A stretch of DNA of 64,000 bases from Centroscyllium fabricii (taxonomy: Eukaryota), in NCBI GenBank assembly GCA_051313645.2, contig JBNRSN020000014.1, positions 63,798,001 through 63,862,000 of the forward strand, read 5' to 3'. Made by a program: the position numbers and the translations under genes. The stretch's first letter is position 1. Each line of letters opens with the position of its first letter. Below, in pieces: positions 16,101-60,659 of the stretch. The notes beneath the pieces were generated by a model that saw only the letters and a program-made list of their open reading frames with translations, was not told the DNA's origin and did no database searches.

Positions 16101-16560
16101 CTCAAGGACGTTGGTCCCATCCCTGTTTGAGGTACAATCCGTCCATCTTGTCCAGGGCCCTCCTATCCCTGAACTGGTCCCAATGCCCCAGAAATCTGAA
16201 GTCTGCCCCACTGCACCATTTCTTCAGCCACACATTAACCTGCCTTATGGTCCTGCTCCTGTACACACTAGCATGTGGCACTGAGTAATCTGGAGATTAC
16301 CATCACTTGAGGTCCTGCTCTTTAGCTTCCTCCCTAGCTCCTGAAACTTTGACTGCAGGACCTCAACCCTTTTCTTCCTTATGTCATTTGTTCCAACATC
16401 GACCATGACTTCTGACTGTTCCCACCCCCAAGCAGCATGTTCTACACTCATTCCGTGATCTCCTTTACCCTGACGCCTGGGAGGCAACATACCGTGCTCC
16501 TAAGGAGTTTCTCTAATCTCTCCAGGTTAGCACAACATGATTCTTCTGGCTATTCCAGGG
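13170..16560 (-). mobile_element. Long decayed CR1 LINE (ORF1 esterase remnant plus ORF2 remnants)
   Basis: ORF1-like VDVGTNDIRKKRVEVLQSKFQELGRKLKSRT (SGNH/GTND motif); ORF2 C-terminal ERVQRRFTRMVP...FSLEQRRLREDLLEVLKIMKGFDR. Confidence 0.85.
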
Positions 16561-16819
16561 GGCACCTGCCCCATCAAGCCTTATGTATCAAACAAAGGAC
16601 ACCTGCTCTGTTAGCAAGTTTGACGCATTTTCCTGTGGAAAGAAGGCATCAGGTTGTTTAACAGGTTGGTCATAATGCTCAGATTTCACTGGATGACCAG
16701 GTTCCTTCAGTGCAGAGTTGCATATAGTAACTGTGGCAACTCGAGCAGCCCGATGGCCTCTTAGAACAGACGATTGCATTCAATTATTGTTGGTGTCTAC
16801 TGCAAACATTTATCTAGGA

Positions 16820-16906
16820 CTTCACCTGAGGAAGGAGCAGCGCTCTGAAAGCTTATGATTTCAAATAAAACTGTTGGACTATAACCTGGTGTTGTGACTT
16901 CTTACA
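16820..16906 (+). mobile_element. Penelope 3'-end fragment (family B) with a hammerhead-like core
   Basis: TTCAC-CTGAGGA-AGGAGCAGCGCTCT-GAAA-GCTT-ATGA followed by AATAAAACTGTTGGACTATAACCTGGTG. Confidence 0.7.
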
Positions 16907-17504
16907 TTTATCTAGGAAGTAGCTGTAGCACCTTCATTGTGTGGAGGCGAGCAAACCTTGGAGCATGGCTCTTAGTAGGGTTAACAGCCCTGGATGCAGA
17001 GGATAGTCTCACTCTGAGAAACTCTAACACCAGAGTAGCAATTTGGCCTGGACATTTGGCATCTCTTCTGTTTCTGGCTGCCACAACCTCTTTCAAAGAA
17101 AAGTGTGCTGTGTAATTTTGGCACAGTAAGTGTATGCATCAACGGCGGCAGCTGTGTACAGTCCATGAAATTGTACCTCCCTGAAGGTTGAGAGTTTCCA
17201 ACTTGTGTTTGTGCCAGGCTTTAGGCGATCCCAAAAGAAAAGAGCAAAATTGAGCAATTAACTTTGCCTTTCTCTTGACGCCATCAAACTTCTTTGCATT
17301 GAGTTATACACACTCTCAAACGAGGGAGATGCTGAAGGGTGGGGGCGGGGGTGGCGCAAGACCAAGTTGGGCAAATACATAATTCCTTGCAAGTGCAGGT
17401 AGAGCCATAAAACCCAATAACATTTTGGGGTTTCATGAATGGATGCATAGAGTACAAGAGTAAAGAGGAATGTACAAGACACTGGTTAGGCTATAATTTA
17501 CAGT

Positions 17505-17953
17505 TTTTTAATTCGTTGATGGGATGTGGGCGTCGCTGGCTGGCTAGGCCTGCATTTAGTGCCCATCCCTAATTGCCCTTGAGAAGATGGTGGTGAGCCG
17601 CCTTCTTGAACCGCTGCAGTGGTTGCAACTGAGTGGCTTGCTAGGCCATTTCAGAGGGCATTAAGAGTCAATCACATTGCTGTGGGTCTGGAGTCACATG
17701 TAGGCCAGACCAGGTAAGGACGGCAGATTTCCTTCCCTAAAGGACATTAGTGCACCAGATGGGTTTTTGCAACAATCGACAATGGTATCATGGTCACCAT
17801 TACTAAGACTAACATTTAATTCCAGAAATAAATTGAATTGAATATAAATTCCACCAGCTGCCGTGGTGGGATTTGAACCCATATCCTCAGAGCATTTGAC
17901 TGAGCCTCTGGCTTACTAGTCTAGTGACATAACCACTACGCCACCGCCTCCCC
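17505..17953 (-). mobile_element. tRNA-derived SINE
   Basis: A box TGGCGTAGTGG and B box GGTTCAAATCC on -; body shared with 49312-49700; A-rich end. Confidence 0.8.
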
Positions 17954-18934
17954 TTGTGTTCAGTTCTGTTTTGGAAAGGCCTTTGAGGTCATAGAAATCA
18001 TATCGTAGTCATGATGATTCTAGGGTTGCAAAACTATAATTGCGAGGAATCCCAAAATACTGACTCCTTTACACTGGAGTAAAGAAAGCTCGGGGGGCCG
18101 GGCCGGGTGGGGGAGGGGGGCTGGGCCCCGGGGGGGGGGGGGGGGCGTGGGCCGGGGGGGGGCGTGGGGCGGGCGGGGGCAATGTTCTGCATGTGAAGAG
18201 GGGGTGGTGAATACAATCCTAATCTGAAATTATATTAAGTATAATTTCAAAGTGAAGAACTCTTTATTTGTGTAGTATATATGCTTCATATTTTGACAGT
18301 CCTCCATTACATTGGCACTTGGATAGGGTAGTTTAAAAAAAAAAATCTTGACATGCTGGAAAGTCTGAATTTATTTTATTGCACATCTCCAGTTGCTTTG
18401 CTTTGAAGGTGCTGGTGGGCCACATCTGTGGCTTTTGGCTCAAATTGAATCTCTACCAAATAATTTTGCTCCTGTTTCCCATCCCTTCATTTAGAGAGGA
18501 AATACAATTTTGTTTTTCACATCATTCTACCTAAACACACGTTTACTAGTTTAGACATTTTTTCCTAATTTGCTTACAAATGGTTAGTGATGATGTCCTT
18601 TTGTGTTGAGCCTTATCTGGGTGTAACCCATTAGGCAGGATGCCTTCTCTCCTGCTGTTACCACTCAGGCTAATACACAAAGGATCTCCCTGATCTCTCT
18701 CTGCAAGGAAGCTGATTGTGTAGAAGAAGCTAGATTTTGAGGAAGACTACAAAAGCAAGATAAAGCAACAGTTTAAAATGCTGGTGTAGTACATCGATTA
18801 AACAAATCATTAGATAATTTTAAACTTGGGTAATCCATTTCCTATCCATATTGAAGGTTATCTAATTTATTTTACAAGATAATTGGTCAGAAACTACCAC
18901 GTAAATTTAGGATTAACAGCAAAATACATTCTAT

Positions 18935-19567
18935 GGCCTGGATTATGCTGTCGGCAGCGAAGGAACGGTGCTTGCTGTTCACTATGCTGGCAACCATCCA
19001 CAGACTTTTTACAGGCTTTTGAGTGGCAACTCGCTGGCATCAGGTCTCTGATCCAGTGCAGTGCCGTCTACATGGAATTTGTGGCATGTTTGAGCAGGCA
19101 AGCAACAGTGTGGCTCTTCAACCAATCTGATTTGAATCGTCTAAACCAGGAAGTATAAATTAGATTTAAATCCTGTACAGTGAGGAAAAGAAAGATGGGA
19201 TTGAGATGAGAAAAATAACAATTTTTAACAAATTTCTTAACACCAATTACATTCTGAAGGAATTGGACGCCATGCTTGTAAAATTAAATCTTCAGTGCCA
19301 TTGTTTGACAGTAATTATGACTTATCATGCTGTTAATAATTCACTTACCTCAATGCACCAGCCCTAACTTTTTCCTGCCGTGTTTAGTGGGTAAGTACAG
19401 CAACTTCATGCTGTTGCGTAGATTTCAATGTCGAGTCTATCGGCGAAGTACCGTTGTAGTGAAGCTCGGTGTAGGGTAGCTCGGACCACAACTTCTGGAT
19501 TTCAGCATTTAATAGCGTATGTGCTCACTGTTGGCCTCGCTGTTATTCTCAATGCAAATTCCGAGCC
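18935..19567. mobile_element. PIF/Harbinger-ISL2EU-like MITE (same family as 52708-53463)
   Basis: Ends GGCCTGGATTATGC...GCAAATTCCGAGCC; internal blocks shared with the second copy. Confidence 0.65.
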
Positions 19568-19828
19568 AATATTAAATTTGTAAGCTTCTTCTTCTTGTCG
19601 TGTCTTCTTTCGAAGTGGTGGATGGAGTTTTTAACAGACCGGTTAACGGTCTGCTTTTTGACCGCGCGTTAGCGCCTCCTCCGTGGTCACAGTTTGTAAG
19701 CTATGTACATGGAACAACTATGTTGTAAAGATAGTACTTCACTAGAGGTTGTTGTTTAAATGATTTTGATGTGCTGAAACATTAAGGGATAGATGTGTAA
19801 ATACATTTTGCATTTTATATTTTTACAG

Positions 19829-19983
19829 GCTCTGGAGTCCAAGCTTGCATCCTGTAGGAATTTTGTCTGGGATCAATCTCCAAACCGTGCAAATCTGCCA
19901 TCTGCTCACAATGGAAACCACACAATAAAAGACAGCAATGATAACAGAGTGCCCAATGCCAATCTACCCCAATATGACAAAGG
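19829..19983 (+). CDS. NDE1: NDE1 penultimate coding exon, 155 nt
   Basis: ttacag|GCT CTG GAG...AAA GG|gttggt; ALESKLASCRNFVWDQSPNRANLPSAHNGNHTIKDSNDNRVPNANLPQYDK(G). Confidence 0.93.
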
Positions 19984-20179
19984 GTTGGTAAAACCATGTT
20001 TTGACAGACTTGCAGTTTTTTGAGATGCAGTCACCATAAGTGGACAGCACTTGTGTGCAGCTTAAGTGACTGACGAAATTGTTGAATATACAGTATTTTG
20101 GAATTTGGTCAGATCAGCTATATAAAAAAAAAACTCTTTCTAAGTACTCAAATGTGCCCAATCAATCTTTAGGAAAAAA

Positions 20180-21340
20180 AACCAACTTGCATTTATATAG
20201 TATCTTGAGTGCAGAAAAAGTCTCTGGTGCTTCAGAGGCATAAATGAATGCCAAAGGAGGACCTATTAGGTGGAGTAAAAGCGCAATCAGAAGTTGGTTT
20301 TAAGCAGTGTTTTGAGGGAAATCCAGAGCTTGGGGTCTGGGCACCTTCAGGGAGGGGGATGCCCAAGATACTGGAAGTCGGAGGAGTGAAGAGTATAGGA
20401 GAGGCTGCTGTAGCACTGGAGGTTAGTGATGGAGAGTAGCTAATCCATGGAGGGACAAGGATGGATACATTTAAATTTGAGGACTTGGAGCCGATGCAAG
20501 TGAGTGAGGACACGGGTGATGGGTGAGTGGGACTTGGTGCAGGATAGGGTATGGGCAAAGTTGTGACTGAGCTGAAGTTTGAGGAGCACGGGAGGCTGAG
20601 CAGCAGAGCATTGGTAACTGAGGCACAGGTGAGTTTTGATGGCAGATTAATTGAAAGTCTGCCTCTGCCCCTACATGTTATGGAGGTGGAGTTAGGCGAT
20701 CTTTGTGATGGCGAGAATATGGTTATGGAAGCTTAACGTTGAATAGGACAATTGGTTTGAGAACAGTTTGGTTGAGAATGAAGAGGTGGCTACAGGTGGG
20801 ATGGTGACGGTGGATAGGGTATGGGGTTTTTGGCAGAGCCTGAAGGTGGCATGGACATTCTTGTAGTTTAACTGGAGAAATTGCAGTTCACCCAAGACCG
20901 GATGTCTTGACAGCACTGAGGCAATGGAGGGGTCGATGGGGTTAGTGGAGAGGTAGACCTGTGTGTAATCAGCATATATGTGGAAACTGGCTTCATGACT
21001 TTGGATAGTGTTTCCAACATGGATCCTTGCGGCACTTGTGCTGTGGGGTGGGAAGAGAAGTTATTGCTGGAGATGTTTTGGCCATGATTAGTTTAGTAAG
21101 AATGGAACCAAGCAAAGACAGTTCCAAGAAAAATGCGAGACACACATTGGTGGAGGAGGATGGTTATAGTTGACCACTTTAAAGGATAGAGAGAATGGGG
21201 AGGGATAATACACCAGTCACAATCGGAGAATGCCATTTGTGACTGGATTAAGGCCATTTCAGTCAAAGTCGAGGAATCCTGATTGGAGAGAGTGGCACAG
21301 ATCTGGGAGGCAGCAACATGTTGCAAGAATTTGGAGAACC
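20180..21340 (-). mobile_element. Old L2 LINE fragment
   Basis: AACTTGCATTTATATAG L2-type tail on +; degenerate ORF2 3' region. Confidence 0.65.
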
Positions 21341-21451
21341 ACTGAAACTTTGCTTTTTGATTATGTTCAATGCTTTTTGATTATGTTCAATGCTATATTA
21401 TCATATGTTAAATGTAGCTAGTTATGTTGCATCAAATACTTGGATCCTGAG

Positions 21452-21803
21452 CAATGTTCCCTCCTAAGCTGCGATTTGTGTGGTGCTTGTTCATTTCAAT
21501 GCACGGTCCCTTTACATTTCTGCACATGCACAGTATTTCCAGTGGAAAAGCCTGCAGCGGACCCTGCAGATTACTGCGCAGCCGGTCCCGCGCGCAGGAC
21601 CCTGCGAATTACTACGCAGCCGGTCCTGCACGTGGGACCCTGCGGGTTACTATGCAGCCGAGCCCGCGCGTGGGACACTGGGGGTTACTGCGCCGCCGAG
21701 CCCGCACGCGGGACCCTGGGGGTTACTGCGCCGCCGAGCCCGCGCGCGGGTCCCTGCGGGTTACTGCGCCGCCGAGCCCGCGCGCGGCTTAGAGGGAACA
21801 TTG
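21452..21803. mobile_element. hAT-like MITE with an internal ~36-bp GC-rich minisatellite
   Basis: TIR CAATGTTCCCTC...GAGGGAACATTG; about 6 units of GGGACCCTGCGGGTTACTGCGCCGCCGAGCCCGCGC; decayed 8-bp flanks ATCCTGAG/GTCTTGAT. Confidence 0.8.
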
Positions 21804-22292
21804 GTCTTGATCCTGGGGAAGTTCACCACAACTGGCGAATATCTACTGTGCTCGAGCAATCTGTTTTACAAACCTGCTGTCACTGGGCAGTCTGACTGTA
21901 CATGGTATCAAATTGTTGGAAATAAACTGCTAATAGTGAAAACCGGCTTTAAATCCTGAATGTTAAAGACAGGACATTTATATAAAAAAACAAGTATTCA
22001 AGGCACCAATAGAACAAGTTCTAAACAAAAAAAGACCACGGTCCCCACCTAATTTGCCTTCTACCACCCTGGTAGTCACATGATGCAATGATAATGGAGT
22101 TGTTGATTAATTATGGCTATCAATTAGTCTGCAACAAACCCAAACGTAAGGCGAGATAATCTCCTATGGTCTAAAACTTTGGGAACTGTAGGTCCAAAGT
22201 AGTCTGTTCCCCTCGAGCATAATGCACTTGCCATACGTCCCGTCTCGTATGCTGTATCCCAAATTATTTTTTGATTTTTGTTGTTTTTCCAG

Positions 22293-22386
22293 GTTAGCCA
22301 AAAGGCTGGAGTTTGGAGCACTTGCCTCGAAAGTCTGCGCACAAGCAACTGTGTCACCACAGGGTGTAGTCAAAATCCTGCTCTGA
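22293..22386 (+). CDS. NDE1: NDE1 terminal coding exon (KMLL-type C-terminus)
   Basis: Long polypyrimidine tract, then ttccag|G TTA GCC...CTG CTC TGA; (G)LAKRLEFGALASKVCAQATVSPQGVVKILL*, comparable to human GLGKRLEFG...QGVVKMLL. Confidence 0.93.
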
Positions 22387-27924: not shown

Positions 27925-30622
27925 AATTCAAGTTTTATTGTCATTGCAGAGTACTAGTACAATGCAACGAGACGAAGACTCGCCGCTCCCGAGAGTAGTG
28001 CAAATAATTAACACACAATTGCATACAGTAAGGTACATTTCAGGTGTGCAGATACTGGAGTTTATTTTTAGAGTTCAGGAGGCTGACAGCCCTGGGGAAG
28101 AAGCTGTTCTTAAATCTAGTCGTGCGGGTGCAAATTGATCTGTAGCGGCTCCCGGAGGGCAGAGGGGCGAACAGACTGTGGCTGGGGTCTGTGGGGTCTT
28201 TAATAATGTTCAGAGACCTCCGTAGGCAGCGTTTGAGGTAGATACATTCAATTGATGGTAGCTGGGTGCCGGTAATTCGTTGGGTAGTTTTGACTACCCG
28301 CTGCAGGGCCTTCCGGTCTGAGATGGTGCAGTTTCCATACCAGACTGATGCAGCTTGTCAGTATGCTTTCGATTGTGCAGCGGTAGAAGTTGGCGAGGAT
28401 GCCGGATGACAGCTTGGCTTTTTTCAGCTTCCTTAGGAAGTACAGGCGCTGTTGGGCCACCTTAATCAGGGAGGATGTGTTTAGTGACCAGGAGAGGTCT
28501 TCCGAGATGTGGACCCCGAGGAACTTGAAGCTGGACACCCTTTCCACCTCAGCCCCTTGGATGAAGATGGGGGTGTGTCTTCTGCTTTCAGTACTCCGGA
28601 AGTCCACTATGATCGCCTTAGCTTTCTTGGTGTTCAGTGCCAGGTTGTTGTCGGCACATCATCCCACAAGGCGCTGGATCTCATCCCTGTTGGCTGACTC
28701 ATCGTTGTTGGTGATCTGACCAACCACCGTGGTGTCACCCGCAAACTTGATCGTGTTGGAGCCATGGACAGCCGCACCGTCGTGGGTGAAGAGGGAGTAG
28801 AGGAGGGGGCTCAGCACACAGCCTTGTGGGCCCCCCGTGTTCAGGGTAAGCGGGGGGGAGGTGAGGTTGCCTAACTTCACAGACTGTGGTCTGTTGGTTA
28901 GGAAGTCCAGGGTCCAGTTGCAGAGGGAGGTGTTCAGGCCAAGGGTGAGGAGTTTGGTAGACAACTTGCTGGGGACGATGGTGTTGAATGCTGAGCTGCA
29001 GTTAATAAACAGCATTCTGATATATGTATCTTTTCTATCCAGGTGGTTTAGTGCAGAGGGAAGAGCTGTAGTGATAGCATCTTCCGTTGATCTGTTTCCT
29101 CGATAGGCAAACTGGTATTGGTCCAGGGCGGCGGGGACCAGCCGCTCGAAACACTTCATGATTATGGGTGTGAGTGCGACAGGGCGGTAGTCGCTCAGGC
29201 AAGTCACGGCCGTTTTCTTGGGCACAGGGATGATGGTGGCGGTCTTGAAGCAGGTAGGAACAGCTGCCTTCGCCAGTGACAGGTTGAAGATGTCGGTGAA
29301 GACCTCAGCCAGTTGGTCAGCACAGTCTTTGAGTGCCCGGCCGGGGATGCCGTTGGGACCCGCAGCCTTCCGTGCGTTCACTCCACGTAGAGCACCTCTT
29401 ACGTCGGAGGAGGACAGTATTAGTGGCTGATCTTCCGGAGATTGCAAGACTTTGGTGGCTGGCCCCCTGTTGTCCCTGTCGAAGCGAGCATAGAAGTTGT
29501 TGAGCTCCTCCGGTAGGGACGCATCGCTGGTCGGGGGGCTGGTGTTTTTGCACTTGTAGTCCGTGATGGACGTATGCCTTGCCACATACGCCGAGGGTCC
29601 GAGTTGTTGTGGAAGTGTTCCTCTATCTTCAGTGTCTGGTTTCGTTTGGCAGACCTGATACCCCTCTTTAAGTTTGCCCTGGCTGTGCTGTAAGCTGCCA
29701 CCTCCCAGATTTGAAAGCTACGTCACGTGCCTTCAGCAGCGAGCGGACCTCCCCCGTTCATCCAGGGTTTCTGGTTGGGGAATGTCTTGATGGTTTTTTG
29801 GGTAGTGGCCACCTCGACACAGCTGTTGATGTAAAATAGCACTGTGGATGCGTATTCCTCGATGTCCGTGTGAGCGAACATGCTCCATTCAGTGCGTTCG
29901 AAGCAGTCTTGTAGCTCTGAGACTGCCCCTTCTGGCCATACCCTGACTCTTTTGGCTGGAGCTTTCACCCTTTTGATGAGTGGTTTGTATGCTGGGGTAA
30001 GGAACAGTGAAAGGTGGTCGGACTTCCCGAGGTGGGGGCACGGGATGGCTTTGTAAGCCTCTGCGATGTTGGTGTAGACCTGGTCCAGCGTGTTCTCACC
30101 CCTCGTGGGGCAGGAGACATTCTGGTGAAATTTCGGTAGTACGGATTTGAGGTTAGCGTGGTTGAAGACCCCCGCCACGATAAAGGCTCCCTCCGGATGC
30201 GCGGTCTGCTGCTCGCTGATGGCCCTGTGGAGATCCTTTAGTGCCAGTTTGGCATTGGCATGTGGAGGGATGTAGACCACAGTGAAGATGACTGCCATGA
30301 ATTCCCGAGGCAGGTAAAAGGGTCTGCACTTTACAGTGAGGAATTCCAGATCGGCGGAGCAGGAACGTTCGATCAGTTCCGCGTTTGTGCCCCAGGCGTT
30401 GTTCGTGTAGATGCACAGGCCGCCTCCCTTGCTCTTACCGGAGTCGGCTGTTCTGTCGCGCGGAAGACAGTGTGACCCGCTAGCTGGATGGCGGAGTCAA
30501 GAATGCCGTCGTTCAGCCAGGTCTCCGTGAAGATCATGGCGCAGCATTCCTTGATCCTGGTCTGTGGAGAGGCCAAGCTTGATTTAATCAATTTTACTCC
30601 CTAGGGACCTGACGTTGGCCAG
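27925..30622 (-). mobile_element. Rex1/Babar-clade LINE, near-complete EN+RT, frameshifted
   Basis: EN: IFTETWL, GVFNHANL, LGKSDH; RT: [57 protein letters not shown] (catalytic FADD mutated); tail AATGACAATAAAACTTGAATTG. Confidence 0.92.
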
Positions 30623-30788
30623 AGAGGCAAGAACAAAAGGCAAGGTCTGTGACTGGATGGAAGGCAGGAGAAGAAAGGGGGCATTAAGAGATAGTCAAGG
30701 CAAGAGGAGATGGTAATGGACAGGTTAAGGAATAAAGGATGGCTCTAGATGGAGTGTGAATTGCGCTGGCAGAATGGAAGACAAATGC

Positions 30789-31372
30789 AAGAAGTCACAC
30801 AACACCAGATTATAGTCCAACAGTTTTATTTTAAATCACAAGCTTTCGGAGCGCTGCTCCTTCGTCAAGGTGAAAAAGAGAGACTGACTTAAAGAATGCA
30901 CATATGTGATAAAGGAAGAAATCCGATATCTCCCACATCTCACCTCAGTAGAGATAGACACACAAAGGCTTATTCACATATTTTAAGTGTTTCATTTAAA
31001 CATAGCATATATAGAGAGAGATAACAATGTGGTCTGTCCAGTTGTTTCACATCACACCTCAGCTGAGGGACATCAAAGCAATCAAAGGTGTTCCAACATA
31101 TCAGCTAGCCTGAGATCAAAGGGTGCAGTCACAAAGGGTCAAGCGCTACAGTCTGCTTTAAATCCCACATAATGATTTTTTTTAAACAAGGATTTTTCTT
31201 ACTTAAAATCGCAGAACAAGCCAAAGATGGTTCGAGTGTGGATGACTACGTCAGGCGATTTCACATGTAGCGCGACATAAACCCAATATCACGGTTGAGG
31301 CCATGCTCATGGGTGCGGAACTTGGCTATCAGCCTCTGCTCGACGATTTTGCGTTGTGGGTCTGGAAGGCCA
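30789..31372 (-). mobile_element. Penelope-like 3' fragment (family B): ORF C-terminus plus pLTR with hammerhead-like core
   Basis: QRKIVEQRLIAKFRTHEHGLNRDIGFMSRYM* followed by TTGACGA-AGGAGCAGCGCTCC-GAAA-GCTT-GTGA. Confidence 0.75.
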
Positions 31373-34755: not shown

Positions 34756-35159
34756 GTGAGTACAGGAGTCTCATTTCAATATTGAAATGAAGCTTGCGTT
34801 CGGTTCAGGCAGTCACCACGGCCACCTCAAAAGGGCCCCAACCAATTTAGCATTGGCCCAAATTCCCGCACGGCCCTCTGCACTGCCTGTTGTAGACCAT
34901 AAAACGGCCGCAACAATCTTAAATTTAGACAGCCATATGTCTTCAAGGCAACAGCTTATGCCTTTTTAAACCTATGCGAATTCACTTTGTGTTGAAAGGC
35001 AACACTTAAACTCATTTCCTCCCCCCCCCCGCCCCATCCTTTTCCAAGGATGATCAGAAATCTGTAATGTGACACAAGGGAACAGACCCAAATTGGAGGA
35101 GCACGAAGCCCTTGATCACCATGGAGGAGTTCACTCTGGACATCCTTACTTATAAGAGC

Positions 35160-35446
35160 CTTGATGTGGAGGGGCCGGTGTTGGACTGGGGTGGACAATT
35201 GTAAGAAGTCACACAACACCAGGTTATAGTCCAACAGTTTTCTTTGAAATCACAAGCTTTCAGAGCGCTGCTCCTTAGGTGTAAGTAAAAGAGATTCATT
35301 TAAACACAGCATATCTCTCCCTCTATATATGCTGTGTTTAAATGAATCTCTTTTACTTACACCTGATGAAGGAGCTGTGCTCCGAAAGCTTGTGATTTCA
35401 AATAAAACTGTTGGACTACAACCTGGTGCTGTGTGACTTCTTACAG
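35160..35446. mobile_element. Palindromic Penelope-derived mini-element with 14-bp TSD
   Basis: TTACTTATAAGAGC at 35146-35159 and 35447-35460; 35200-35445 is a near-perfect inverted repeat. Confidence 0.88.
35359..35395 (+). ncRNA. Minimal type I hammerhead ribozyme motif
   Basis: CAC-CTGATGA-A-GGAGC TGT GCTCC-GAAA-GC-TT-GTG; palindromic AAGCTT in the helix III position. Confidence 0.65.
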
Positions 35447-36214
35447 TTACTTATAAGAGCAGTGAGTGAACAGGGGAAGGTGAAGTCACAGATGACCCCC
35501 TTCCGTGCTGGCCAAGCCCCTGTTCTTGCTGTATCTTATCCATTCTCTCTTGTACATATCACACAGGCTATCTTGAAATTCACACCCTGAATGTGTCTAG
35601 TGGAGGCCACATTCCAACATTTGGTCCTTTTTATTTGCCATTGTGGGCCTGGATGAGTAGTCTGCAGGCACTGACGCTAGCTCACCATAAGATGGCACCT
35701 CTTACTACCCTGTCGTACTCTTACCATAGATCCTAAGCAGAGGATGTCGTGGGTGAGGGTCGGAAGGACAAAACGGTGGTGGAGTAGGAGCTTGCTGCCT
35801 GGATGTATACATGGCAAATGTCAGTAGACTCCTAAACTTTGGGCGATGCGAAAGGGCAGTAAAATTTGGCAGCTGTTGCTATTTGTTGGAAAATGAGATG
35901 AACCTACATGTGACTGATGCATCGGTTATTACCAGTTTCATACTTGTCTGGACAATGCATTGGCTAATACAGCAGTGCTGGTCTGGAAGATGCCAGAGGC
36001 AGAAAGGTTGAGGGCAGTGGTGATCTTAGCTACCACTGTCAGTGATGTCCCTATACTGCAGCAGCCCTTGCAGCAGATGGCATAGCTCTGTAATTGGCTT
36101 TCTTCTAACCTGAAGCTTGCAGATAAGTTGTTCCTGACCATAGACCTGACTATAATTAATGGCAATATAAGGGGCACAGACAGTCTGGTTATGGTGCATG
36201 CTGATCTTCCCTGC

Positions 36215-46588: not shown

Positions 46589-46730
46589 TTATTCATTAGA
46601 TTTTGTGCCATTGAAGTCCGCATCTCGCCCGCCAGCATCTTCATCAGAGTTTTCTAGTGAAGCATTATCGATTACTGCACGTCTGCCACCAGATCTCCGT
46701 GTGCCACTTAGCATTGGCTCATTTCCACGC
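46589..46730 (-). CDS. MYH11: MYH11 terminal exon (SM1 non-helical tailpiece)
   Basis: ctgtag|G CGT GGA AAT...AAT GAA TAA; (R)[46 protein letters not shown], resembling the human SM1 tail (...RRSGGRR...[12 protein letters not shown]). Confidence 0.95.
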
Positions 46731-48947
46731 CTACAGCAGGAAATACAACATGTTAGCAAATAGCAAAATCAAACCCAACAAGCAGTAATCCAATATTTAC
46801 ATGACTCCTCCAAACAACTCTCTAGCAACATTTAGATAAAGAAATGGCAAATATTTATTTACCCAGAACTGGTCTAGATAGATGCAAGCCTCCAACCGTT
46901 TGAGACCATCAACCACCCAAAAAAAGATGTCTGCTGTTCGATGCATTCAAATTCTATCAACAATGAGTGACTTTAGCGCAGCTACTCTTTACCCTTCAAC
47001 AACTGAAAGGCGATTGTGGACATATTTAAAACTTAGGTATGGATAGGTGATTGTGTCTGTATCTGAACTCTTTTTAAATGATGCAGCATTTTATTTAACT
47101 CGTAAAATTGAAGAATTGTAGTTCTAAAAGTGAGGCCTTGACAGATTTGTGAATCCTAGTGTTCTCTTGATGAAACTTGCTGATGCATGTCGAACTTGGA
47201 GTCTCGGGGTGAGAGGGAGGTTTGTTTTTATTTTCAAATCTCTAGCCTTTGTCGTCATTGAGGTTGAATCATGACCATTCCTACCGTCAGCCAAACAAGA
47301 TTACAGTGGTTACTTTACACCTGCTTTGTGGCAAACTACCATAGTAGCTTTGTAACATGCAAATTGATGTGCTTTGAGACCACACATGCAAAGGGGACCA
47401 AGGGCTAGCTGGGGCTTATATATATTTTAAATCCAATCAATGCATCATCTATAGTTACGTTCAAGCAATTTATTCTTCATATAGGTGCAGTTAGACAAAC
47501 AGCATCAGTGAGTCTGCCTAGTTTGTTGTTTTTTGTGCGAGGATAAACTGGGCAATAATTGCTTGTGTATTAACTTTCTGGCTCCAATGTTGTGAAGTGA
47601 ACCGTAAAAAGCTTAAAATGGGCATAAAATATAAACTCAATTCTGTATTTCGATTTAAGCAAACTTCATAATTTTGTTTTTTTTCTACTGTTTACCTTTA
47701 AATAACAATATATTTCAGGGAATAAGCTTTAGCCATGCTTCCTAATCGGCATATCTGTTTATTTAACCCTTTGAGGACTAAGTGTTTACAGCAATTTGTA
47801 AAGATATCCATCGACATTAAATTTTCAGGCAAGGCCTCATTTATTATTAAAAAATCTAGAATGAAAAAAAAAATTTTTTAAATGGTTTGATGGAAATCTG
47901 CTACACAGTGTTTATATAATCCTCAAAGGGCTTGGGAAAATAAAACAGCTATAGAACATGGAATTAATAAAGCAAACAGGGTCAAACCCTTAACTGCCGC
48001 AAGTTATGCTTTAAAAAATGCCCGCGTGAATGTTTGCTGAGGTAGAAAATACCAAACATTATAAATGAATGGATTATATTTCCAACAATCATTTGTGGCT
48101 TGGTGTGCTATAGGGTGGTGGGAGCTGGTTCAACTTGTGGCCACCCACAAGGCCAGTTTTCTATATCCTACGTTGCAAGGAGTTAAAATATAGTTTGGGG
48201 CGGGGGGGGGGGGGGGGGGGGGGGGGGGGAGAACGGACAGCAATCACCACAGCCTGCAATCTGTACGGCTCAATAATCTCACCCCCGAGAGTGACTTCAT
48301 TTGTGGCTCTGCTCCCAGGCAACAAACAAAATGTAGTGAGATCTGAACTGGATGGGAGAAAATAAAATAAAAATCAAGGCTAAAATAAGTTAGACAAATC
48401 TCTTGGAGGATTCGGCAGTGTAAGGGTTGGCAGTCTTTTCAAATGAAGCACAAATAGTTAGTGACAGCCTTGATATGTATGGAGATTGCACATTCCGCTG
48501 CATGTCCATAGCAACATTTAAAGTGTTAAGCTCTTTTCTATAACAATCTATCAGAACCTTTATTCTGTTTACTTATACCACATGTAATGTCATTTCCATG
48601 AAATATATTTCATGGAGGTCATAATTGAGAAAATATAGTTAAGAGTGAACATCACCAGGAACAATTTGCAATTCAACACAGTGTGTACATGAAGTATTAC
48701 AATCGGACTCCTATTTTATCTAACATGTGGTATAATGAAGAGCCATGGGATAAGATTTATATTTTGCTAGGAGTGCTCACTATAATAAGTCACATATAAA
48801 TCACATCCAGCAGCTCTTCTTTCTTTAGGTCACTTTTTTTACTGATATCTATCTTCAGCTTTCAGAAACGTTGTCAGTACTTAAGGAGAAAAAGAGATGA
48901 AAATTTGAGCGTTATGAAAAGTTGCATAGCTGAGGTTTGGGAGGTAC

Positions 48948-48980
48948 CTGGACGTTCACTGAGCAGGTTCATGTGCACCT
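48948..48980 (-). CDS. MYH11: MYH11 SM2-type alternative micro-exon (33 nt, in-frame stop at 48956-48958)
   Basis: tttattacag|A GGT GCA CAT GAA CCT GCT CAG TGA ACG TCC AG|gtacct gives (R)GAHEPAQ*; position, phase and CAG-TGA...CCAG end match the mammalian SM2 exon (RGPPPQETSQ*). Confidence 0.85.
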
Positions 48981-49311
48981 CTGTAATAAAGACAAGATTT
49001 CCCTCACGGTTACATATCATTCCTATTATAAATGATTCTTAAAACAAATAATAATCAGGTCCAGTATACATTGTGCAGAAGCCTACAGACAGAATACGAT
49101 CTGAATTTTACAAAATGGAATCTTGCAGATGCCAATTAATCTAAAAACATTGAAAAATCCACTATGTTAGAGATGAGTTATTTTGCTATGGTTATTCTAC
49201 AATGAATGATAGTTAATGATCTGTTGCTCTCAAAAGTGTTAATACAGATCATTTAGAGTAAATGCGTGTGCCTGCCGTACTCTGGCTTTTAAGGTTTTTT
49301 ATCGGCCAATG

Positions 49312-49700
49312 ACGTTTAGTGTAGTGGTTATGGTACTGGACTAGTAACCCAAAGATTGAGTTCAAATCGCCAATGGCAAGTTGTGAAATTCAATTCAATA
49401 AATCCGTTAAATTTTGGGATAGCACCAAAGAAATTGACCATAAAAGCCATCGAGTTGTCCTAAAACCCCAACTGGATCACTAATGTCCTCGGGAATGGGA
49501 ACCTGCCACCTAACCCGGACTGGCCTGCATGTGACTCCAGTCCACACTATGTGGTTGACTCTTAATATCCCCTGAAGTGGCCTAGCAAGCCACTCATTTG
49601 TGTAAATGGCAAGGCCCACCATCGCCTGCTCAGGGCATCTAGGAATGGGCAATTAATCAGGCTTTGCCAGCATCACCCACATCCCCAAGAACAATTTTTT
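49312..49700 (+). mobile_element. tRNA-derived SINE (same family as 17505-17953)
   Basis: GTGTAGTGGTTATGGTACTGGACTAGTAA...GAGTTCAAATC; shared CATGTGACTCCAG...TGGCCTAGCAAGCCACTCA body. Confidence 0.75.
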
Positions 49701-50639
49701 TGTGTCGAACTGTCTAGCCTAATCCTGGCATTCACACATACGCTTTCCAGCAGAGTCCAAGGGAATGATAATAAGGACTGGGACACCTGGTTAATTTGCT
49801 TCTCTTTTCCACACCCAATACCACCTATGGAGAGACTATCAGGTATTTTCTCCCATTTCTCCTTGCTTGAATCTCTATTGTTCATCCCATCAGGTCCTAA
49901 AAACAGGCAGTTACCTCCAGGCATCCACACATGGTTCTCTGAAGTAGGCTGATCAGAGGTTCACAACAGTGGGCTGGATGAGACTCTCTCTATCCCTCTT
50001 GGGTAACGATTTACAGTAACTATTTAAAGCGGCACTTTACATTACTTTGTCAAAACATTCTTGAATTGCTCCTGTTTAAAATTATTCCAGTATTCCTTAT
50101 TTACCTGCAAATAAAGTACCTCTAAAAAATCTACTCTGGCTGCAGGTATTCCTGGAGGTTTGATCACATGACCACCGGGTCTCTGATAGTTCGGCAGGGC
50201 CACGTGCAAAGGTCATGGGTTCCTACTCCGCTTCGTTTATGGCGGTGGCGCGGTCTAAGGAATTTCGATCATAATTCTTAACATAATTTTTACTGGTCGT
50301 GGATACCCAAGACTTCTGGGCAGAATTCCTCTGAATGCTTGTTTTGAGCCCAGGTGACCCTCGAGTGTCAACATGCTGTATTTACTTACTGACTGGATTT
50401 CTTCTGTGACAGGTGAGCAGCACATGGAATATGTTAATGTTCGCTGATTTCCCCATTTGGATTTGATCTGGTTATTCACTATTCGTTTGTTTTGTTTAAA
50501 TATCTCTTGGGGTGGGCCAGCCCTTCCTGAAATTCTCATGATGTCTCCCCTGTGTTGCGGCCAGTGGCTCCTCCTCGAACCACCCCGCCCCTGCCCCCGC
50601 CCCATTCCCACCTTCAACCACTGGAGACCAGGGTCACAT

Positions 50640-50812
50640 ATATGAAGGAGTTGGATATATTTCTTAAGGCTAAAGGGATCAAGGGATATGGGGAGAAGGC
50701 AGGTACGGGGTACTGAATTTGGATGATCAGCCACGATCTCATCGAATGGCAGAGCAGGCTCGAGGGGCCGAATGGCCGACTCCTGATCCTATCTTTTATG
50801 TTTCTATGTTTC
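50640..50812 (+). mobile_element. Short CR1 3'-end insertion
   Basis: Matches 34605-34755; TATGTTTCTATGTTTC tail. Confidence 0.8.
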
Positions 50813-51686
50813 ACATATAAAAGACACATCGTGCCGCTTCCCCTCACCCCGCTTTCACCGATTCAAATCTCAATCTCAATCCTGATCACGAATCTCGCAG
50901 GCTATTTAGTTAGGGAACAGTGTTGAAATTCTCAGAGTTGAAAGCTTCTTTCCACTCCACACTAACTTCGCCGCAACTAGGACGAGGCGGGCAGAGGCGG
51001 CAGAGTTCCCTGAATGCGGAGCTCTTTTTCTCCCGGGTTGCCAGCAGCAGTGCCAGAGAGAGCAAACCTCAATTCTGGGAGACTCCCTGGACAAAGTGGG
51101 AAGGTTGGCAACCCTTGGCAGACAGGCTACAAAGTAAAATCCAAAATGTTTTGGATAAAGCAAATCCACAATGGAGGACAATGACTAATCCTATTAGGGA
51201 AATTAATCAGGTCTTATCTGTGGGAACATTTGGAATTTTACTGTCCTTCATTGTATCGCTCTCAATGGCAAGGCACGTTATCATTTTGAGTGGTTTAATT
51301 TATATTGGTCAAATATGTCTTACCTTCCTTGTCCAAAATGCGGTTTCTTGTGACTCATTCTACAGGCATCAACATTTTTAACTTGCTACCTTAACAGAGG
51401 AGAAGTAAATCCTACCAGAGGCCGAGAATTTCCTCGGAGCTACTCTCACTCCCGCTACCTTAACTTCACCGGAAGTACGGCAGGAACCCAGTTTGTGTGC
51501 GTAAAACAGTGCATCTCCTGCCCTCGCAGCGAAGTTACGGCGATGAAGCAGGAAGATCGGCTCCGAGGAAATTCCCAGCAAATTCTCAGTCCTGCAAAGA
51601 TGTCGGTAAGCTGAGATTCTAACAGCCTGATTCCACCTGTTTGAGGAATTCCTACTCCAGGAGATGGGCGGGACTGTTGAAGTTAC

Positions 51687-51859
51687 CTTAGTTTGTTCTT
51701 CAGCGTGTTGCATTCACGGGTCAGGGTTTCATTCAGCTCGGTGGCTTCCTCCAGCTCTCTCTGAAGCTTGCGCCGGGACGCGTTGATCCGCTGAGATTCC
51801 TCCTCGGTCTCTTCCAGCTGCCGCTTGAGCTGTTTCACGCGGGAATTGCCTTTCTCTGC
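51687..51859 (-). CDS. MYH11: MYH11 last common rod exon, 173 nt
   Basis: [57 protein letters not shown](R), donor AG|GTAACT. Confidence 0.95.
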
Positions 51860-52004
51860 CTGCAACGTCAAAAACATTTTGAGGAGATATTTTAAATGTG
51901 TGCCATGGTAACATTGTAAAAGCAGGTCTTTCTCAAACTGCGACACCAGTATTCTTGGGAAATTTGAAAATGGGCAATGTAATATGGAAAAATACACAAG
52001 TTAC

Positions 52005-52668
52005 AAGAACATAAGAAGTAGGAGCAGGAGTAGGACATACGGCCCCTCGGCCCTGCTCCGCCATTCAATAGGATCATGGCTGATCCGAACTTAGACTCAC
52101 GTCCACTTCCCTGCCCGCTCCCTGTAACCCCTTATTCCCTTATCAGCTAGGAAACTGTCCATCTCCATTTTAAATTTATTTAATGTCGCTGCTTCCACAG
52201 CTCTCTGGGGCAGCAAATTCCGCAGATTTACTACCCTCTGAGTGAAGAAGTTTCTCCTCATCTCAGTTTTGAAAGGGCAGCCCCTTATTCTCAGATTATG
52301 CCCCCTAGTTCTAGTCTCACCCATCAGTGGAAACATCCTCACTGCACCCACCCAATCAAGCCCCCTCACAATCTCATATGTTTCAATAAGATCGTCCTTG
52401 AGTAGAGGTCCAATCTACCCAACCTTTCCTCATAAGTCAACCCCCTTATCTCCGGAATCAACCGAGTGAACCTTCTCTGAACTGCCTCAAGAGCAAGTAT
52501 ATCTTTTCTTAAATATGGAAACCAAAACTGCACGCAGTATTCCAGGTGTGGCCTCACCAGTACCAGTACCCTGTATAAATGTAGCAAGACTTCCCTGCTT
52601 TTATACTCCATCCCCCTTGCAATAAAAGCCAAGATTCCATTGGCCTTCCTGATCACCTGCTGTACCTG
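52005..52668 (-). mobile_element. CR1 LINE 3' fragment
   Basis: LVRPHLEYCVQFW, LEAVQRRFTRLIP, RNFFTQRVVNL; ACATAAGAA tail. Confidence 0.9.
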
Positions 52669-52707
52669 AGATAAGGGTCTCTCCCTTGTAGGGGTACCCA
52701 AGGCTAT

Positions 52708-53463
52708 GGACCAGATTTTGCTCTCACTGGTGAACGAATGGCACCCACAGACTTTCTATAAGAGTTTGGCACTGGAACTTGCGGTAAATTAGAGAGCCAA
52801 AACGACGCAGCGCCCTCTATGGGGATCTGGCACCAGTGAACGGTAAGCAACTGTGTATCTCCTTAACCAATCAGATTGAAGAATCGTTACTGAGCAGCGA
52901 AGTCTGCATCAGGAAGTGTCAGTTAGAATATTGAATTCAATGTCAAATCAGGTACAGAAAGAAAAGTAGAGGGGGGGGGGGGAAGAAAGATTGGATTGAG
53001 AGAGAGAGAGAGATAAAAAGTACAGAAAGAATAAGTTAAAAAAAGTTTTATTTAAATGTTTGCATTTAAAAAAAAATTCCAACAATAATTAAAATCTGAA
53101 GGAATGAGACCCCACATTTGTAAAAGTTAATTTTCAGTGCCAGAGAGGTTGTTTGGCAGTAAAGAAGATATCACTCCATTAAAAATTTACTTAAACTGGA
53201 ATGGACAAGTCCTAACATTTTCTGGTGAGTTTAGTGTGCATCGATCACACAAGTACAGCAAATTCACGCTATTCCATGTATTTCAATGCCGAGTCTCTCA
53301 GCGAGATACTGTTATAGCGGAGCTTCTGGAGGAGCAGGGCAACGTGAACAGCAACTTCACGATTTCCATGGTTAATTGCGCAAGTGCGGACGCCGGATGT
53401 TTACACTTTAATAACAGTGAGCACGGATAGCCTCACCGTTATTTCTACAGCAAAATTCGGCCC
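52708..53463. mobile_element. PIF/Harbinger-ISL2EU-like MITE
   Basis: AT|GGACCAGATTTTGC...GCAAAATTCGGCCC|AT; homologous to 18935-19567. Confidence 0.7.
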
Positions 53464-53699
53464 ATGTCGACATCTGCTTAAGATGCTTACAACATAGGCT
53501 AAACTTTGTGACAAGCTCCTTAACTGAAGAGAATCAAGGTGATCCTGGAATGCAGAGCAGCACTTCAGATTGATTTTTTTTAAATGGTTGCGGACAGAAC
53601 AATGTGCTGGAGATCCGGCTGCATGAGGTCTTTGAAAGAGACAGCCATTCAGCAATTAAGGGTGCCATCAGAGCAGTATGAGTGGAGGCGACAGTTAAG

Positions 53700-54755
53700 T
53701 ACCTAACTTGCACGAAATTCCATTCACCCGTCACCCCGGTGCTCGCTGACCTCATTTCACTCCTGGTCCAGCAACGCCTCTATTTTAAAATTCATATGCT
53801 TGTTTTCAAGTCCCTCCATGGTCTCGCCCCTCCCTATCTCTGTAACCTCCTCCAGCCCCACAAGCCTCGGAGATCTCCTGTGCTCCTCCAATTCAGCCCT
53901 CTTGTCCACTGCACCCCCTCCCCGCCCCCCCCCCCCCCCCCCCCGATTTTCATCACTCCAGCATTGGTGGCCGTGCCTTCAGCTGCCTAGACATTGCTTT
54001 TGGTCCCTGCCAGAAACTCTGTCCCCTAGCCATTGACTCCATCCCTCTCCCTGGCAACTGTCTGAGGTTGAACCAGACAGCTCACAACCTTGGTGTCATA
54101 GTTGATCCGGAGATGAGCTTCCGACCACATATCCGCGCCATCACAAAGACCACCTTTTCCATCTCTGGACCATCACTCAACTCCGCCCCTGCCTCAGCTC
54201 ATCTGCTACTGAAACTCTCATCCATGCCTTTGTTACCTCTAGACTTGACTATTCCAATGCACTCCTTGCTGGCCTCCCACATTCTATCCTCTGTAAACTT
54301 AAACTCTGCTGCCCCTGTCCTAAATCGCACCAAGTCCCGTTCACCCATCACCCCTGTGCTCGCTGACCGACATTGGCTCCCAGTTAAGTAAAAGCCTCGA
54401 TTTTAAAATTCTCATTCTTGTTTTCAAATCCCTCCATGGACTCGCCCCTCCCTATCTCTAACCTCCTATCTGCACTCCTCCAATTCTGGCCTCGAGCATT
54501 CCCGATTTTAATCGCTCCACCATGGTAGCCGTGTCAAGGCCCTAAGCTCTAGAATTCCCTCCCTAAACCTCATTGCCTCTCTTTCCTCCTTTAAGGTGTT
54601 TCTTAAAGCCTACCTCTTTGACCAAACATTTGGTCATTTGCCCCAATATCTCATGTGACTTGGTGTCAAACTTTGTTTGATAACGTTCCTGTGAAGCGAC
54701 TTGGGGCATTTTACTATGTTAAAGGTGCTATATAAATACAAATTGGTTGTTGTTG
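53700..54755 (+). mobile_element. Two tandem L2 3' fragments
   Basis: HSPVTPVLADL..L..FKSLHGLAPPYL occurs twice; tail GGTGCTATATAAATACAAATTGGTTGTTGTTG. Confidence 0.8.
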
Positions 54756-55744
54756 TTGACAGAACTTATCAATGGAGTCTTAACTGTGGCCTGAACCGGA
54801 GAACAGTTGAGGAAGACATTGAATTAGGCTGCACGAAGTTGCCAAACTAAGGCCTTGATTTCGGCAGCTGTGGAGAGTCCGGTCTCAAACCGCACTCCCA
54901 TCTTCATCCCGCCTCATCCAAGTGATTCTGCCCTGATTGGGCTAGTGAAGCCCACCGTACGAGGTTCCCAGCCAATTAAAAGGAAGCGGGTCTGATGTTA
55001 ACTGATGACACGTCATCAGCCGGTTTCCTTAAAGGGACCTTGTCCACATTCATTTTGACAGTTGTGCTGTCAAATGTTGTAAAGCACTGAGGTGCTGCAA
55101 ACACTGACAAGCACTGCACAAAGGTGCACGGTTGCACCCAGGCTCTTCCATTACTCTCCACAGGAGGGCACAAGTAGGGATGTCATCAGGAGGACCAGGC
55201 TGCAGTGGCGCCAACCTTTCAATGATCACAGTAGATCATGAAACGTTACTGCAAAGCCACACTCAACCTCATCCTGCTGTGCCACTCATCACATCCCCAT
55301 CACTCTGCCTTCCCTACCCTACTCCTGCACATCCTTACTCACACCAACTTACCTTGCATCTCCACCCATCCCTCTCTATCTATATTATCACTTACCCACC
55401 TCACTAGATACCCCTCCCTCCCGGCATTGCGGATGGCGGCCGATTGAATACTTAACCTTGCGTCGAGGTGCGGCCGCTATGGCCGCTCCAGCCGGAACCG
55501 GAAATCAGTCCAGTGATTAACTGAACAAGCAGGATCAATACCAGCCCCTGCTGTCTGACAAATGGGAGCAGTGGTTATGATCTGAAATTTCTGAATTCGA
55601 TGTCGAGTCCGGAAGGCTGTAAAGGGTCTAATTGAAAGTGACTACACTTTGTTGTCTGTGAAGCACTTTGGGGCATCTTAAGATAATGAGAGGCGAGGTA
55701 TAAGTGCAAGGTTGCTCGTTTTTCTGGAGAGGTCAACACTGTAC

Positions 55745-55853
55745 CTGTTCTTTATACTGCTCCCCATGTCTTCGCTCATCCTCCACCTGCATCATGATCT
55801 CTTTCAGTTTCTTCTCTGTACGACGAGCTACCTTGGTGGTTGCTTGTTTTTCC
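55745..55853 (-). CDS. MYH11: MYH11 rod-domain exon, 109 nt
   Basis: (K)[36 protein letters not shown]; AG/GT borders. Confidence 0.95.
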
Positions 55854-56723: not shown

Positions 56724-56932
56724 TTTGCTTCGGTCTCCAGTTGCTCTTCTAACTGGACGATCTTAGTCTCCAGAGAGGTTATTGTCGCTTTGAACTTGGA
56801 CTTGACTGTCCCTTCCATTTCCTGCAGCTTGGCCTTCAGCTCTTTGTTCTGCCTCTCGAGCTGCTGGCGAGCACTATCATTCTTCTGATTTGCACTGCGC
56901 TCAGCAGCCAGTTCATTAGACAGCTGTTCCGA
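56724..56932 (-). CDS. MYH11: MYH11 rod-domain exon, 209 nt
   Basis: [69 protein letters not shown](K), donor GTAAGA. Confidence 0.95.
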
Positions 56933-57049
56933 CTGACAATTAAAAAGAAATGTGATCCGATTGAAAAAGGATTAACTCATCTGGGTGACCTATCAAATTC
57001 AAAATGCTGGGGGGGAAAAGCATTTTTAAGTGGCTGTAAACAAGCCACG

Positions 57050-57995: not shown

Positions 57996-58221
57996 CTTAG
58001 TGTGGGATATTCACAACATTTTGTTTGTGAGTACTGAGTTACAATGTGCATATGCTTTCCCATATTGAATTTAGATACAGATTTTAAAAAATTCAATACT
58101 GATTTTGAAAACTTTCTAATCATCTGGATAATCAACAGTCCAATGATCTGGTTTATGGGATCACAGCTAGCAGATGTTAGATTCAATGAGGTGATGTGAT
58201 TGAGTTTCTCCACTATTTTAC

Positions 58222-60628: not shown

Positions 60629-60659
60629 CTTTGAAGAAGGAGGAAAAAACTCATTTAAA

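What the first reader, a model, noticed from the sequence alone, without database searches (positions are those of the whole stretch)
35146..35460. A ~245-bp near-perfect palindrome with a 14-bp TSD and one intact hammerhead core
Seen: insert 35160-35446 lies between perfect TTACTTATAAGAGC repeats, and 35200-35445 folds back around a loop of about 10 nt. The right arm has CTGATGA...GAAA intact, while the left arm has lost 4 nt of that core (it reads CACCTAAGGAGC on -). Known: inverted pLTR ends are a Penelope hallmark. Inference: a minimal ORF-less PLE insertion that would transcribe as a long dsRNA hairpin sequestering its own ribozyme, and so a possible small-RNA source or self-propagating mini-family.
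Basis: partly seen in the sequence, partly recalled or inferred. Interest (0 to 1): 0.7.

Follow-up and report, generated by a model that had tools for sequence, protein, structure and literature searches.

The report
Dead mirror-image Penelope retroelement stub
This 287-base hairpin is a real but ordinary leftover of a Penelope-type jumping gene, one of more than 5,000 similar back-to-back stubs in this genome; it has left no copies of itself, and it was likely built once, from two separate RNA copies of the element's end.

Summary
The sequence is as described: a 14-bp TSD, a 246-bp fold-back with a 12-nt centre, one intact minimal hammerhead core and one with a 4-nt deletion. Both arms are ends (pLTRs) of a Penelope-like family with full RT + GIY-YIG ORFs in this 7.2-Gb genome, in the published inverted-pLTR + tail + TSD layout. 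It is not a mini-family: its hinge and its deletion each occur once genome-wide. 5,273 other short head-to-head pairs exist, and 50 of 50 sampled have distinct tail-oriented hinges. Each arm holds sequence the other lacks, and arms differ at family-polymorphic sites (1,041 of 5,273 at one position), which favours priming from both ends of the cut on two templates; correlated hinge positions and signs of conversion weaken this. The insert lies between the NDE1 and MYH11-like 3' ends; transcription is untested. The scan noted this before on other DNA (37 findings, at least 8 genomes).

The parts
35146..35159 (+). Left target-site duplication (14 bp)
   Evidence: 28 of 50 sibling palindromes have 12-14-bp TSDs
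35160..35199 (-). 40-nt 'tail': 3' extension of the left arm, ending at the position of the family's ORF start codon
   Evidence: In full-length copies L059-L062 the ORF's ATG follows directly; 41 of 50 siblings have one tailed and one short arm
35200..35314 (-). Left pLTR arm (element sense on the - strand), 5'-truncated 35 nt upstream of the CACC that opens the hammerhead
35250..35281 (-). Broken hammerhead: 4 core nucleotides deleted between 35276 and 35277; G10.1-C11.1 changed to G-U
   Evidence: deletion unique in the genome
35315..35326 (+). 12-nt hairpin centre: extra 5' family sequence of the right arm; head-to-head joint near 35314/35315 with about 1-3 nt overlap
   Evidence: arm extents 35 and 46 nt in a 78-nt gap; hinge unique
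35315..35446 (+). Right pLTR arm (element sense on the + strand), no tail, ending about 37-40 nt before the tailed end
35360..35394 (+). Intact minimal type-I hammerhead motif: stem I CAC/GUG, CUGAUGA, bulged A, 5-bp stem II, GAAA, palindromic AGCU, predicted cut 35391/35392
   Evidence: The MFE fold of 35352-35402 reproduces this layout, z = -1.3 on its own; features as in PMC4209133
35447..35460 (+). Right target-site duplication (14 bp)

Best explanation
This is a single, non-propagating insertion of two 5'-truncated ends (pLTRs) of a Penelope-like retroelement, joined head to head between a 14-bp target duplication, likely made when the element's protein primed reverse transcription from both 3' ends of a staggered cut on two pLTR templates. 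Shown: identity of the arms, the layout, the uniqueness of the hinge, the thousands of siblings with different hinges, and that neither arm is a full copy of the other. Inferred: one cDNA began at the distal start site (tailed arm, at the ORF's ATG) and the other about 37 nt upstream (short arm); both stopped near the TATA-like tract and were joined through a 1-3-nt overlap; the left hammerhead lost 4 nt later. Any read-through RNA would fold into a hairpin that pairs up the remaining hammerhead, which is a minimal type reported to cut poorly or not at all as a monomer.
For: Family: 93,765 exact hammerhead 16-mers against 5 controls; copies with ~890-aa ORFs, RT domain E = 6e-10 in 1 of 2 tested. 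Not a mini-family: hinge 1 hit, deletion 1 hit. 5,273 short head-to-head pairs (1,019 + 4,254); hinge lengths 11-120 nt and 50 of 50 distinct when oriented by the tail. The same ends and TSDs frame 11 longer inverted insertions with gaps of 161-4,791 nt, so the stub is the short end of a continuum. Two start sites: tail ends cluster at the ATG and short ends at -30 to -45; a solo short-ended copy with its own 14-nt TSD lies at window 16819-16906. PMC11167929 shows in vitro that an anole PLE cuts and extends both strands from two internal sites that bound the tail. Two templates: here the tailed arm has 40 nt the short arm lacks, and the short arm has 11-12 nt the tailed arm lacks. The short arm reaches further 5' by more than 5 nt in 10 of 29 clean siblings. 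The arms of this copy differ at 2 common family polymorphisms. In clean siblings, 8 of 36 non-CpG arm differences fall on common alleles against 5.4% expected (p = 5e-4). Genome-wide, 1,041 of 5,273 pairs differ G versus non-G at hammerhead position 7, against about 1.2% per-site private differences.
Against: The two arms' 5' ends are correlated: within 5 nt in 16 of 29 clean siblings against 5.9 expected, 0 of 5,000 permutations. Independent truncation does not predict that; a shared RNA 5' end or fold-back does. 23 of 30 clean siblings have no common-allele difference between arms. Discordance falls with distance from the hinge: 8/50 at position 7, 6/49 at 16, 2/49 at 39, 1/45 at 62, and pairs discordant at position 7 mostly agree at position 39 (28 of 30). 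The templates therefore come from within one subfamily, or the centre was altered later. L170/L171 share an identical central tract but differ distally, which looks like conversion. Only 12 of the 30 discordant loci passed my automatic clean-TSD filter. The in vitro work is on a Poseidon-clade element; this family has the Neptune/Nematis-type linker. No empty site was seen.
Confidence: 0.8

Rival explanations
1. Same dead insertion, but the mirror arm was made by fold-back or self-priming: one cDNA turns and copies itself (or self-primes on an antisense template, as proposed in PMC3846280), the endonuclease or a fixed stop sets the short end, and later deletion or gene conversion at the hairpin centre makes the arms unequal.
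For: Near-symmetric hinges in 16 of 29. Arms concordant at common sites in 23 of 30. Discordance is highest next to the hinge. Three hinge-sharing pairs on contig C1 (0.34, 3.2 and 12 Mb apart) suggest that hairpin centres can be overwritten. PMC3846280 Discussion argues for self-priming, and PMC8557442 ascribes the tail to endonuclease-mediated resolution.
Against: The short arm carries up to 55 nt that the tailed arm lacks. Many hinges have 0-1-nt loops. Short-ended arms also occur alone with a TSD. Arms also differ in TSD-framed long elements with 340-4,000-nt spacers that cannot form tight cruciforms (L032, L035, L036, L038, L043).
Confidence: 0.2
2. One reading: the palindrome is a non-autonomous element that is itself transcribed and re-inserted as a unit (a mini-family).
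For: Some other palindromes share a hinge at unrelated sites with their own TSDs: L081/L165/L166 (29 nt), L086/L167 (27 nt), L168/L169, L170/L171, L182/L183.
Against: For this copy the hinge and the deletion are unique. The two complex shared hinges tested occur only twice each genome-wide; in two of the pairs the tail is on opposite sides, and in one the distal arms differ on both sides, which whole-unit copying does not give. The stub ends at the start site and so lacks the downstream ORF sequence that the anole PLE needed in its template (PMC11167929; transfer to this family is an inference).
Confidence: 0.03
3. The hairpin is a functional dsRNA or small-RNA source, fed by read-through from NDE1 (+) or the MYH11-like gene (-), that helps silence the family.
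For: Predicted stem of about 120 bp, z = -25.7. It lies between two convergent 3' ends, about 13 kb past the NDE1 stop and 11 kb past the myosin stop. PMC3846280 reports small RNAs from rotifer Penelope copies.
Against: It lies outside the coding exons found, and candidate poly(A) signals of the myosin gene lie about 10 kb before it. Three such palindromes occur in the surrounding 204 kb, so nothing singles this one out. The arms have gathered mismatches and a bulge without compensation.
Confidence: 0.07

Closest known systems
EN+ Penelope-like insertions with inverted pLTR, tail and TSD (Pen2a_Av of Adineta vaga, PMC3846280; general scheme in PMC8557442)
   Same: Head-to-head inverted 5'-truncated pLTR, a 30-40-nt tail on one arm only, a TSD around the whole unit, a palindrome at the junction, a TATA-like tract near the hinge.
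   Different: No ORF and no direct pLTR tandem: both arms are truncated inside the pLTR. TSD is 12-14 bp here against 8-10 bp there. Thousands of copies.
PAc/Poseidon of Anolis carolinensis (PMC11167929)
   Same: Two fixed 3' ends bounding a tail; AT-rich targets (69% AT in 30 TSDs); arms run through the hammerhead cut site, which fits uncleaved RNA as template.
   Different: This family has a CX4CxxC linker before the endonuclease (Neptune/Nematis type) and its ORF starts at the end of the tail, not at stem II. The paper's main text, as read, does not explain the inverted arm.
Minimal hammerheads of metazoan PLEs (PMC4209133)
   Same: CUGANGA and GAAA boxes, bulged nucleotide between 9 and 10.1, G10.1-C11.1, palindromic 15.2-16.2, no helix III. 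That paper already notes dual motifs 100-700 bp apart on opposite strands.
   Different: Stem II is 5 bp and stem I 3 bp here; activity not tested.
Non-LTR retrozymes (bioRxiv 10.64898/2026.07.22.740005)
   Same: ORF-less, hammerhead-bearing, pLTR-derived.
   Different: Retrozymes are head-to-tail tandems with at least two same-strand hammerheads; this is head-to-head with one intact motif and no daughters.
L1 twin priming (recalled; seen here only as search listings, e.g. PMC2837659)
   Same: Inverted piece flanked by one TSD, explained by priming from both target strands.
   Different: In L1 the two pieces come from different parts of one RNA (recalled); here both arms cover the same pLTR sequence, so two pLTR copies are needed.

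Membership tests
EN+ Penelope-like element (family of origin) | Single ORF with RT and C-terminal GIY-YIG endonuclease next to the same pLTR | tested here: met
   L059, L060, L061, L062 carry open frames of 916-920 codons directly after the tail. Pfam RVT_1 E = 6e-10 in 1 of 2 tested. The endonuclease motif (VYLI..C..GC..WYIGET..R.NGH..EH) was read by eye; Pfam gave no GIY-YIG hit in 2 of 2 C-termini.
EN+ Penelope-like element (family of origin) | pLTRs in direct and inverted arrangement | tested here: met
   Direct pLTRs around the ORF in L059, L061, L062; inverted ones in L061, L063, L032
EN+ Penelope-like element (family of origin) | 30-40-nt tail on one end | tested here: met
   40 nt here; 41 of 50 siblings have one tailed and one short arm
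EN+ Penelope-like element (family of origin) | Hammerhead motif in the pLTR | tested here: met
   no Rfam hit
Neptune/Nematis clades | CX2-5CxxC linker between RT and endonuclease (absent in Penelope/Poseidon, PMC8557442) | tested here: met
   CX4CxxC in L059-L064
Neptune clade specifically | RT phylogeny | not tested
   No tree was built; Neptune rather than Nematis is an inference from the vertebrate host
Minimal PLE hammerhead | Self-cleavage (as dimer or protein-assisted) | not testable with these tools
   Monomers were inactive in PMC4209133; protein-assisted in PMC11167929
Non-LTR retrozyme | Head-to-tail tandem with at least two consecutive intact hammerheads | tested here: not met
   Head-to-head, one intact core
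Non-autonomous mini-element family (MITE-like) | Many copies of the same unit with the same internal junction | tested here: not met
Hairpin-RNA / endo-siRNA locus | Transcription and small RNAs from the stem | not testable with these tools
   Only the fold was computed

The most novel reading that the evidence does not exclude
Penelope-like elements build their puzzling head-to-head ends by loading two RNA templates on one dimeric protein and priming both strands of the cut, one from each start site. The thousands of stubs in this genome record it: about 20% carry different family alleles on their two arms at a single position. Some hairpin centres are later overwritten by conversion from another palindrome on the same chromosome.
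Probability: 0.5. Interest if true: 0.5.

Novelty: new member of a known kind. Interest (0 to 1): 0.17.

Why it matters
The copy itself matters little: it is one dead stub among thousands, in a layout described in PMC3846280 and PMC8557442. The class is useful. How PLEs make inverted ends is called undefined in PMC8557442, and the arm-by-arm comparison gives a genomic handle on it and a simple bench test (two barcoded templates in the existing in vitro system). If thousands of ~100-bp hairpins are transcribed, they could also feed silencing of the family; this is untested.

Tried and rejected
Rfam at gathering thresholds: 0 hits in the window. Expression: no RNA holder listed among 21 runs, which is no evidence either way; run X6 (RNA only guessed, another organism) covered only repeat sequence. 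Presence/absence: contigs of X1 and X3 cross both junctions and one of X4 crosses the right junction, with no empty-site joint among the rows shown. These are two samples of one study, one may be the assembly's source, and contigs drop variants, so fixation is not shown. X10, X11 and X17 did not cover the insertion site. Pfam found nothing relevant in the L032 ORF piece and no GIY-YIG hit on two C-termini. The idea that the insert lies in an intron: I scanned 109 of 201 window ORFs of 75 aa or more and mapped NDE1 by tblastn; the last coding exons end at 22,383 (+) and about 46,590 (-), so it is outside them, though UTRs are not mapped. A figure of about 40% for pairs with independent templates assumes random pairing across the whole family; I do not rely on it, because position 39 contradicts that assumption. 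Five literature searches showed no paper testing a two-template origin of PLE inverted ends; the library lacks most subscription journals, and I saw no supplements (Fig. S2 of PMC11167929 may bear on this). A sequence look-up in the scan's notes returned nothing.

Full report
1. Observation. The window reads TTACTTATAAGAGC at 35146-35159 and 35447-35460 around a 287-bp insert. Positions 35200-35445 fold back with a 12-nt centre; the RNA fold is -195.7 kcal/mol, z = -25.7, with 0 of 100 shuffles as good. The right arm has a complete minimal hammerhead at 35360-35394; the left arm lacks 4 core nucleotides. The arms differ by 6 substitutions and that deletion. All of this is confirmed. Two things were missed: the left arm runs 40 nt further at its outer end (35160-35199), and the 'loop' is family sequence in the sense of the right arm.

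2. What the arms are. A DNA search of the window's 7.2-Gb genome returned many copies with the same two outer ends. Longer loci show the arm as the pLTR of an element with an open frame of 916-920 codons, whose ATG follows the tail directly. One of two ORFs tested hit Pfam RVT_1 (E = 6e-10). The C-terminus has a CX4CxxC linker and GIY-YIG-like motifs read by eye; Pfam gave no hit on two C-termini. By PMC8557442 (passages) that linker marks Neptune and Nematis, not Penelope/Poseidon; I built no tree. The host is likely a cartilaginous fish, inferred from the best full-length NDE1 matches.

3. Family or one-off? The exact 38-nt hinge has 1 match genome-wide. With 2 mismatches there are 4, and the other 3 have other upstream variants, two with the hinge reversed relative to the tail. 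The deletion allele has 1 match. The hammerhead 16-mer occurs 93,765 times. Head-to-head pairs with gaps of 0-9, 10-24 and 10-120 nt number 1,019, 1,557 and 4,254, with 0 controls. These exact-match counts are lower bounds, and this copy is not among them because of its deletion. I fetched the first 50 listed pairs with gaps of 10-120 nt (all on contig C1). Hinge lengths run from 11 to 120 nt; 49 of 50 hinge strings are distinct, and 50 of 50 when oriented by the tail; 41 of 50 have one tailed and one short arm; 33 of 50 have a TSD of 10 nt or more, 28 of them 12-14 nt. Eleven longer TSD-framed inverted insertions have gaps of 161-4,791 nt. Three short palindromes lie in the 204 kb around and including the window. 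The stub is the short end of a continuum of independent insertions.

4. Mechanism. PMC11167929 (abstract, main text and part of the methods read) shows that an anole PLE protein cuts and extends both strands, starts at two internal sites that bound the tail, uses uncleaved RNA, needs ORF sequence beyond the start site, and is predicted to be a dimer. The simplest reading here is one cDNA from each 3' end of a cut staggered by 14 nt, one per start site, joined head to head. For it: each arm of this copy holds sequence the other lacks. The short arm reaches more than 5 nt further 5' in 10 of 29 clean siblings, the tailed arm in 3 (30 of 50 passed the clean filter and 1 more was dropped for foreign fill). 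A short-ended arm occurs alone with its own TSD at 16819-16906. This copy's arms differ at two common family polymorphisms. In the clean siblings 8 of 36 non-CpG differences fall on common alleles against 5.4% expected (p = 5e-4; allele frequencies came from 199 copies that include these arms). Genome-wide, 1,041 of 5,273 pairs differ G versus non-G at hammerhead position 7, against about 1.2% private differences per site. Against it: the arms' 5' ends lie within 5 nt in 16 of 29 (5.9 expected); 23 of 30 have no common-allele difference; discordance drops from 8/50 at position 7 to 2/49 at position 39 and 1/45 at position 62; and only 12 of 30 discordant loci passed the clean filter. So templates come from within a subfamily, or centres were altered later. 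I cannot tell two RNAs from two pLTRs on one RNA. My odds: dead one-off insertion about 95%; twin priming rather than fold-back about 4 to 1; two separate RNAs about 50%. The fold-back rival follows PMC3846280 (passages and Discussion read) and PMC8557442 (passages).

5. Shared hinges elsewhere. Listings showed a few repeated hinges, so I fetched 20 places. One pair, L173/L174, shares flanks and is a duplication. Others have unrelated flanks and their own TSDs. The two complex hinges tested occur exactly twice each, 0.34 and 3.2 Mb apart on one contig. L168/L169 carry the tail on opposite sides; L170/L171 are identical across the centre but differ distally on both arms. This fits conversion of hairpin centres better than re-mobilisation (inference; the pairs were picked from C1 listings, and assembly error is not excluded). 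It does not involve the window's copy.

6. Ribozyme and RNA. The right-arm motif has the features listed in PMC4209133 (results and discussion read) and folds that way in isolation, though not better than shuffles (z = -1.3). That paper found a monomer inactive. In a + strand transcript the motif is predicted to be paired with the left arm; on the - strand the sense motif is the broken one. The insert lies about 13 kb beyond the last NDE1 coding exon (+, ends 22,383) and about 11 kb beyond the likely last coding exon of a MYH11-like gene (-, about 46,590). Transcription was not tested.

7. Comparison and verdict. The layout is the published inverted pLTR + tail + TSD of EN+ PLEs. It fails the tandem criterion for non-LTR retrozymes (bioRxiv 10.64898/2026.07.22.740005; first part and passages read) and the multi-copy criterion for a mini-element family. 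The scan's notes hold 37 similar findings in at least 8 genomes; I consulted them after forming my reading, and they are not counted as evidence. Verdict: real, ordinary, a new member of a known kind; interest 0.17. The value lies in the class as a record of how PLEs build inverted ends.

Noticed in passing
L168/L169 (G000:C1:140.15 and 140.48 Mb), L170/L171 (C1:353.15 and 356.39 Mb), L182/L183 (C1:213.75 and 225.83 Mb): Pairs of palindromes at unrelated sites, each with its own TSD, share one hinge. The two hinges searched occur only twice in the genome; two pairs have the tail on opposite sides, and L170/L171 are identical only across the centre. Possibly conversion between hairpins on one chromosome.
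   Followed up: partly
window 16819-16906 (+): Solo ~85-nt pLTR copy with an intact core, starting 3 nt before the hammerhead's stem I, short-ended, with a 14-nt TSD, inside an NDE1 intron in sense orientation; it may mark the RNA's 5' end.
   Followed up: partly
genome-wide: Head-to-head joints are about four times denser per base at gaps under 25 nt (2,576 of 5,273) than at 25-120 nt, i.e. just upstream of the hammerhead and downstream of the TATA-like tract.
   Followed up: partly
window 6506-22383 (+) and about 46590-61840 (-): 3' exons of NDE1 and of a MYH11-like myosin converge, with about 24 kb between their stops; an alternative NDE1 last exon at 22142-22219 that matches proteins of other sharks has an in-frame stop here.
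   Followed up: no
window 35729-35912: 184 nt about 92% alike in a run of another organism (X11); no obvious reading frame; could be a conserved non-coding piece 270 nt from the insert.
   Followed up: no
window 30780-31021 (-): Degraded, nested pLTR fragments of two subfamilies of the same element.
   Followed up: no
window 28251-30496 (-): Non-LTR retroelement remnant with an RT domain (Pfam RVT_1, E = 7e-17) and a downstream ALKBH8_N-like match.
   Followed up: no
199 pLTR copies in fetched loci: Hammerhead position 7 and loop II vary freely on different subfamily backgrounds, while the core is nearly invariant.
   Followed up: partly
L081, L089, L090, L098: Several palindromes sit inside other repeats: the 3' end of a LINE-like repeat, or the upstream part of another copy of the same PLE family.
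   Followed up: no
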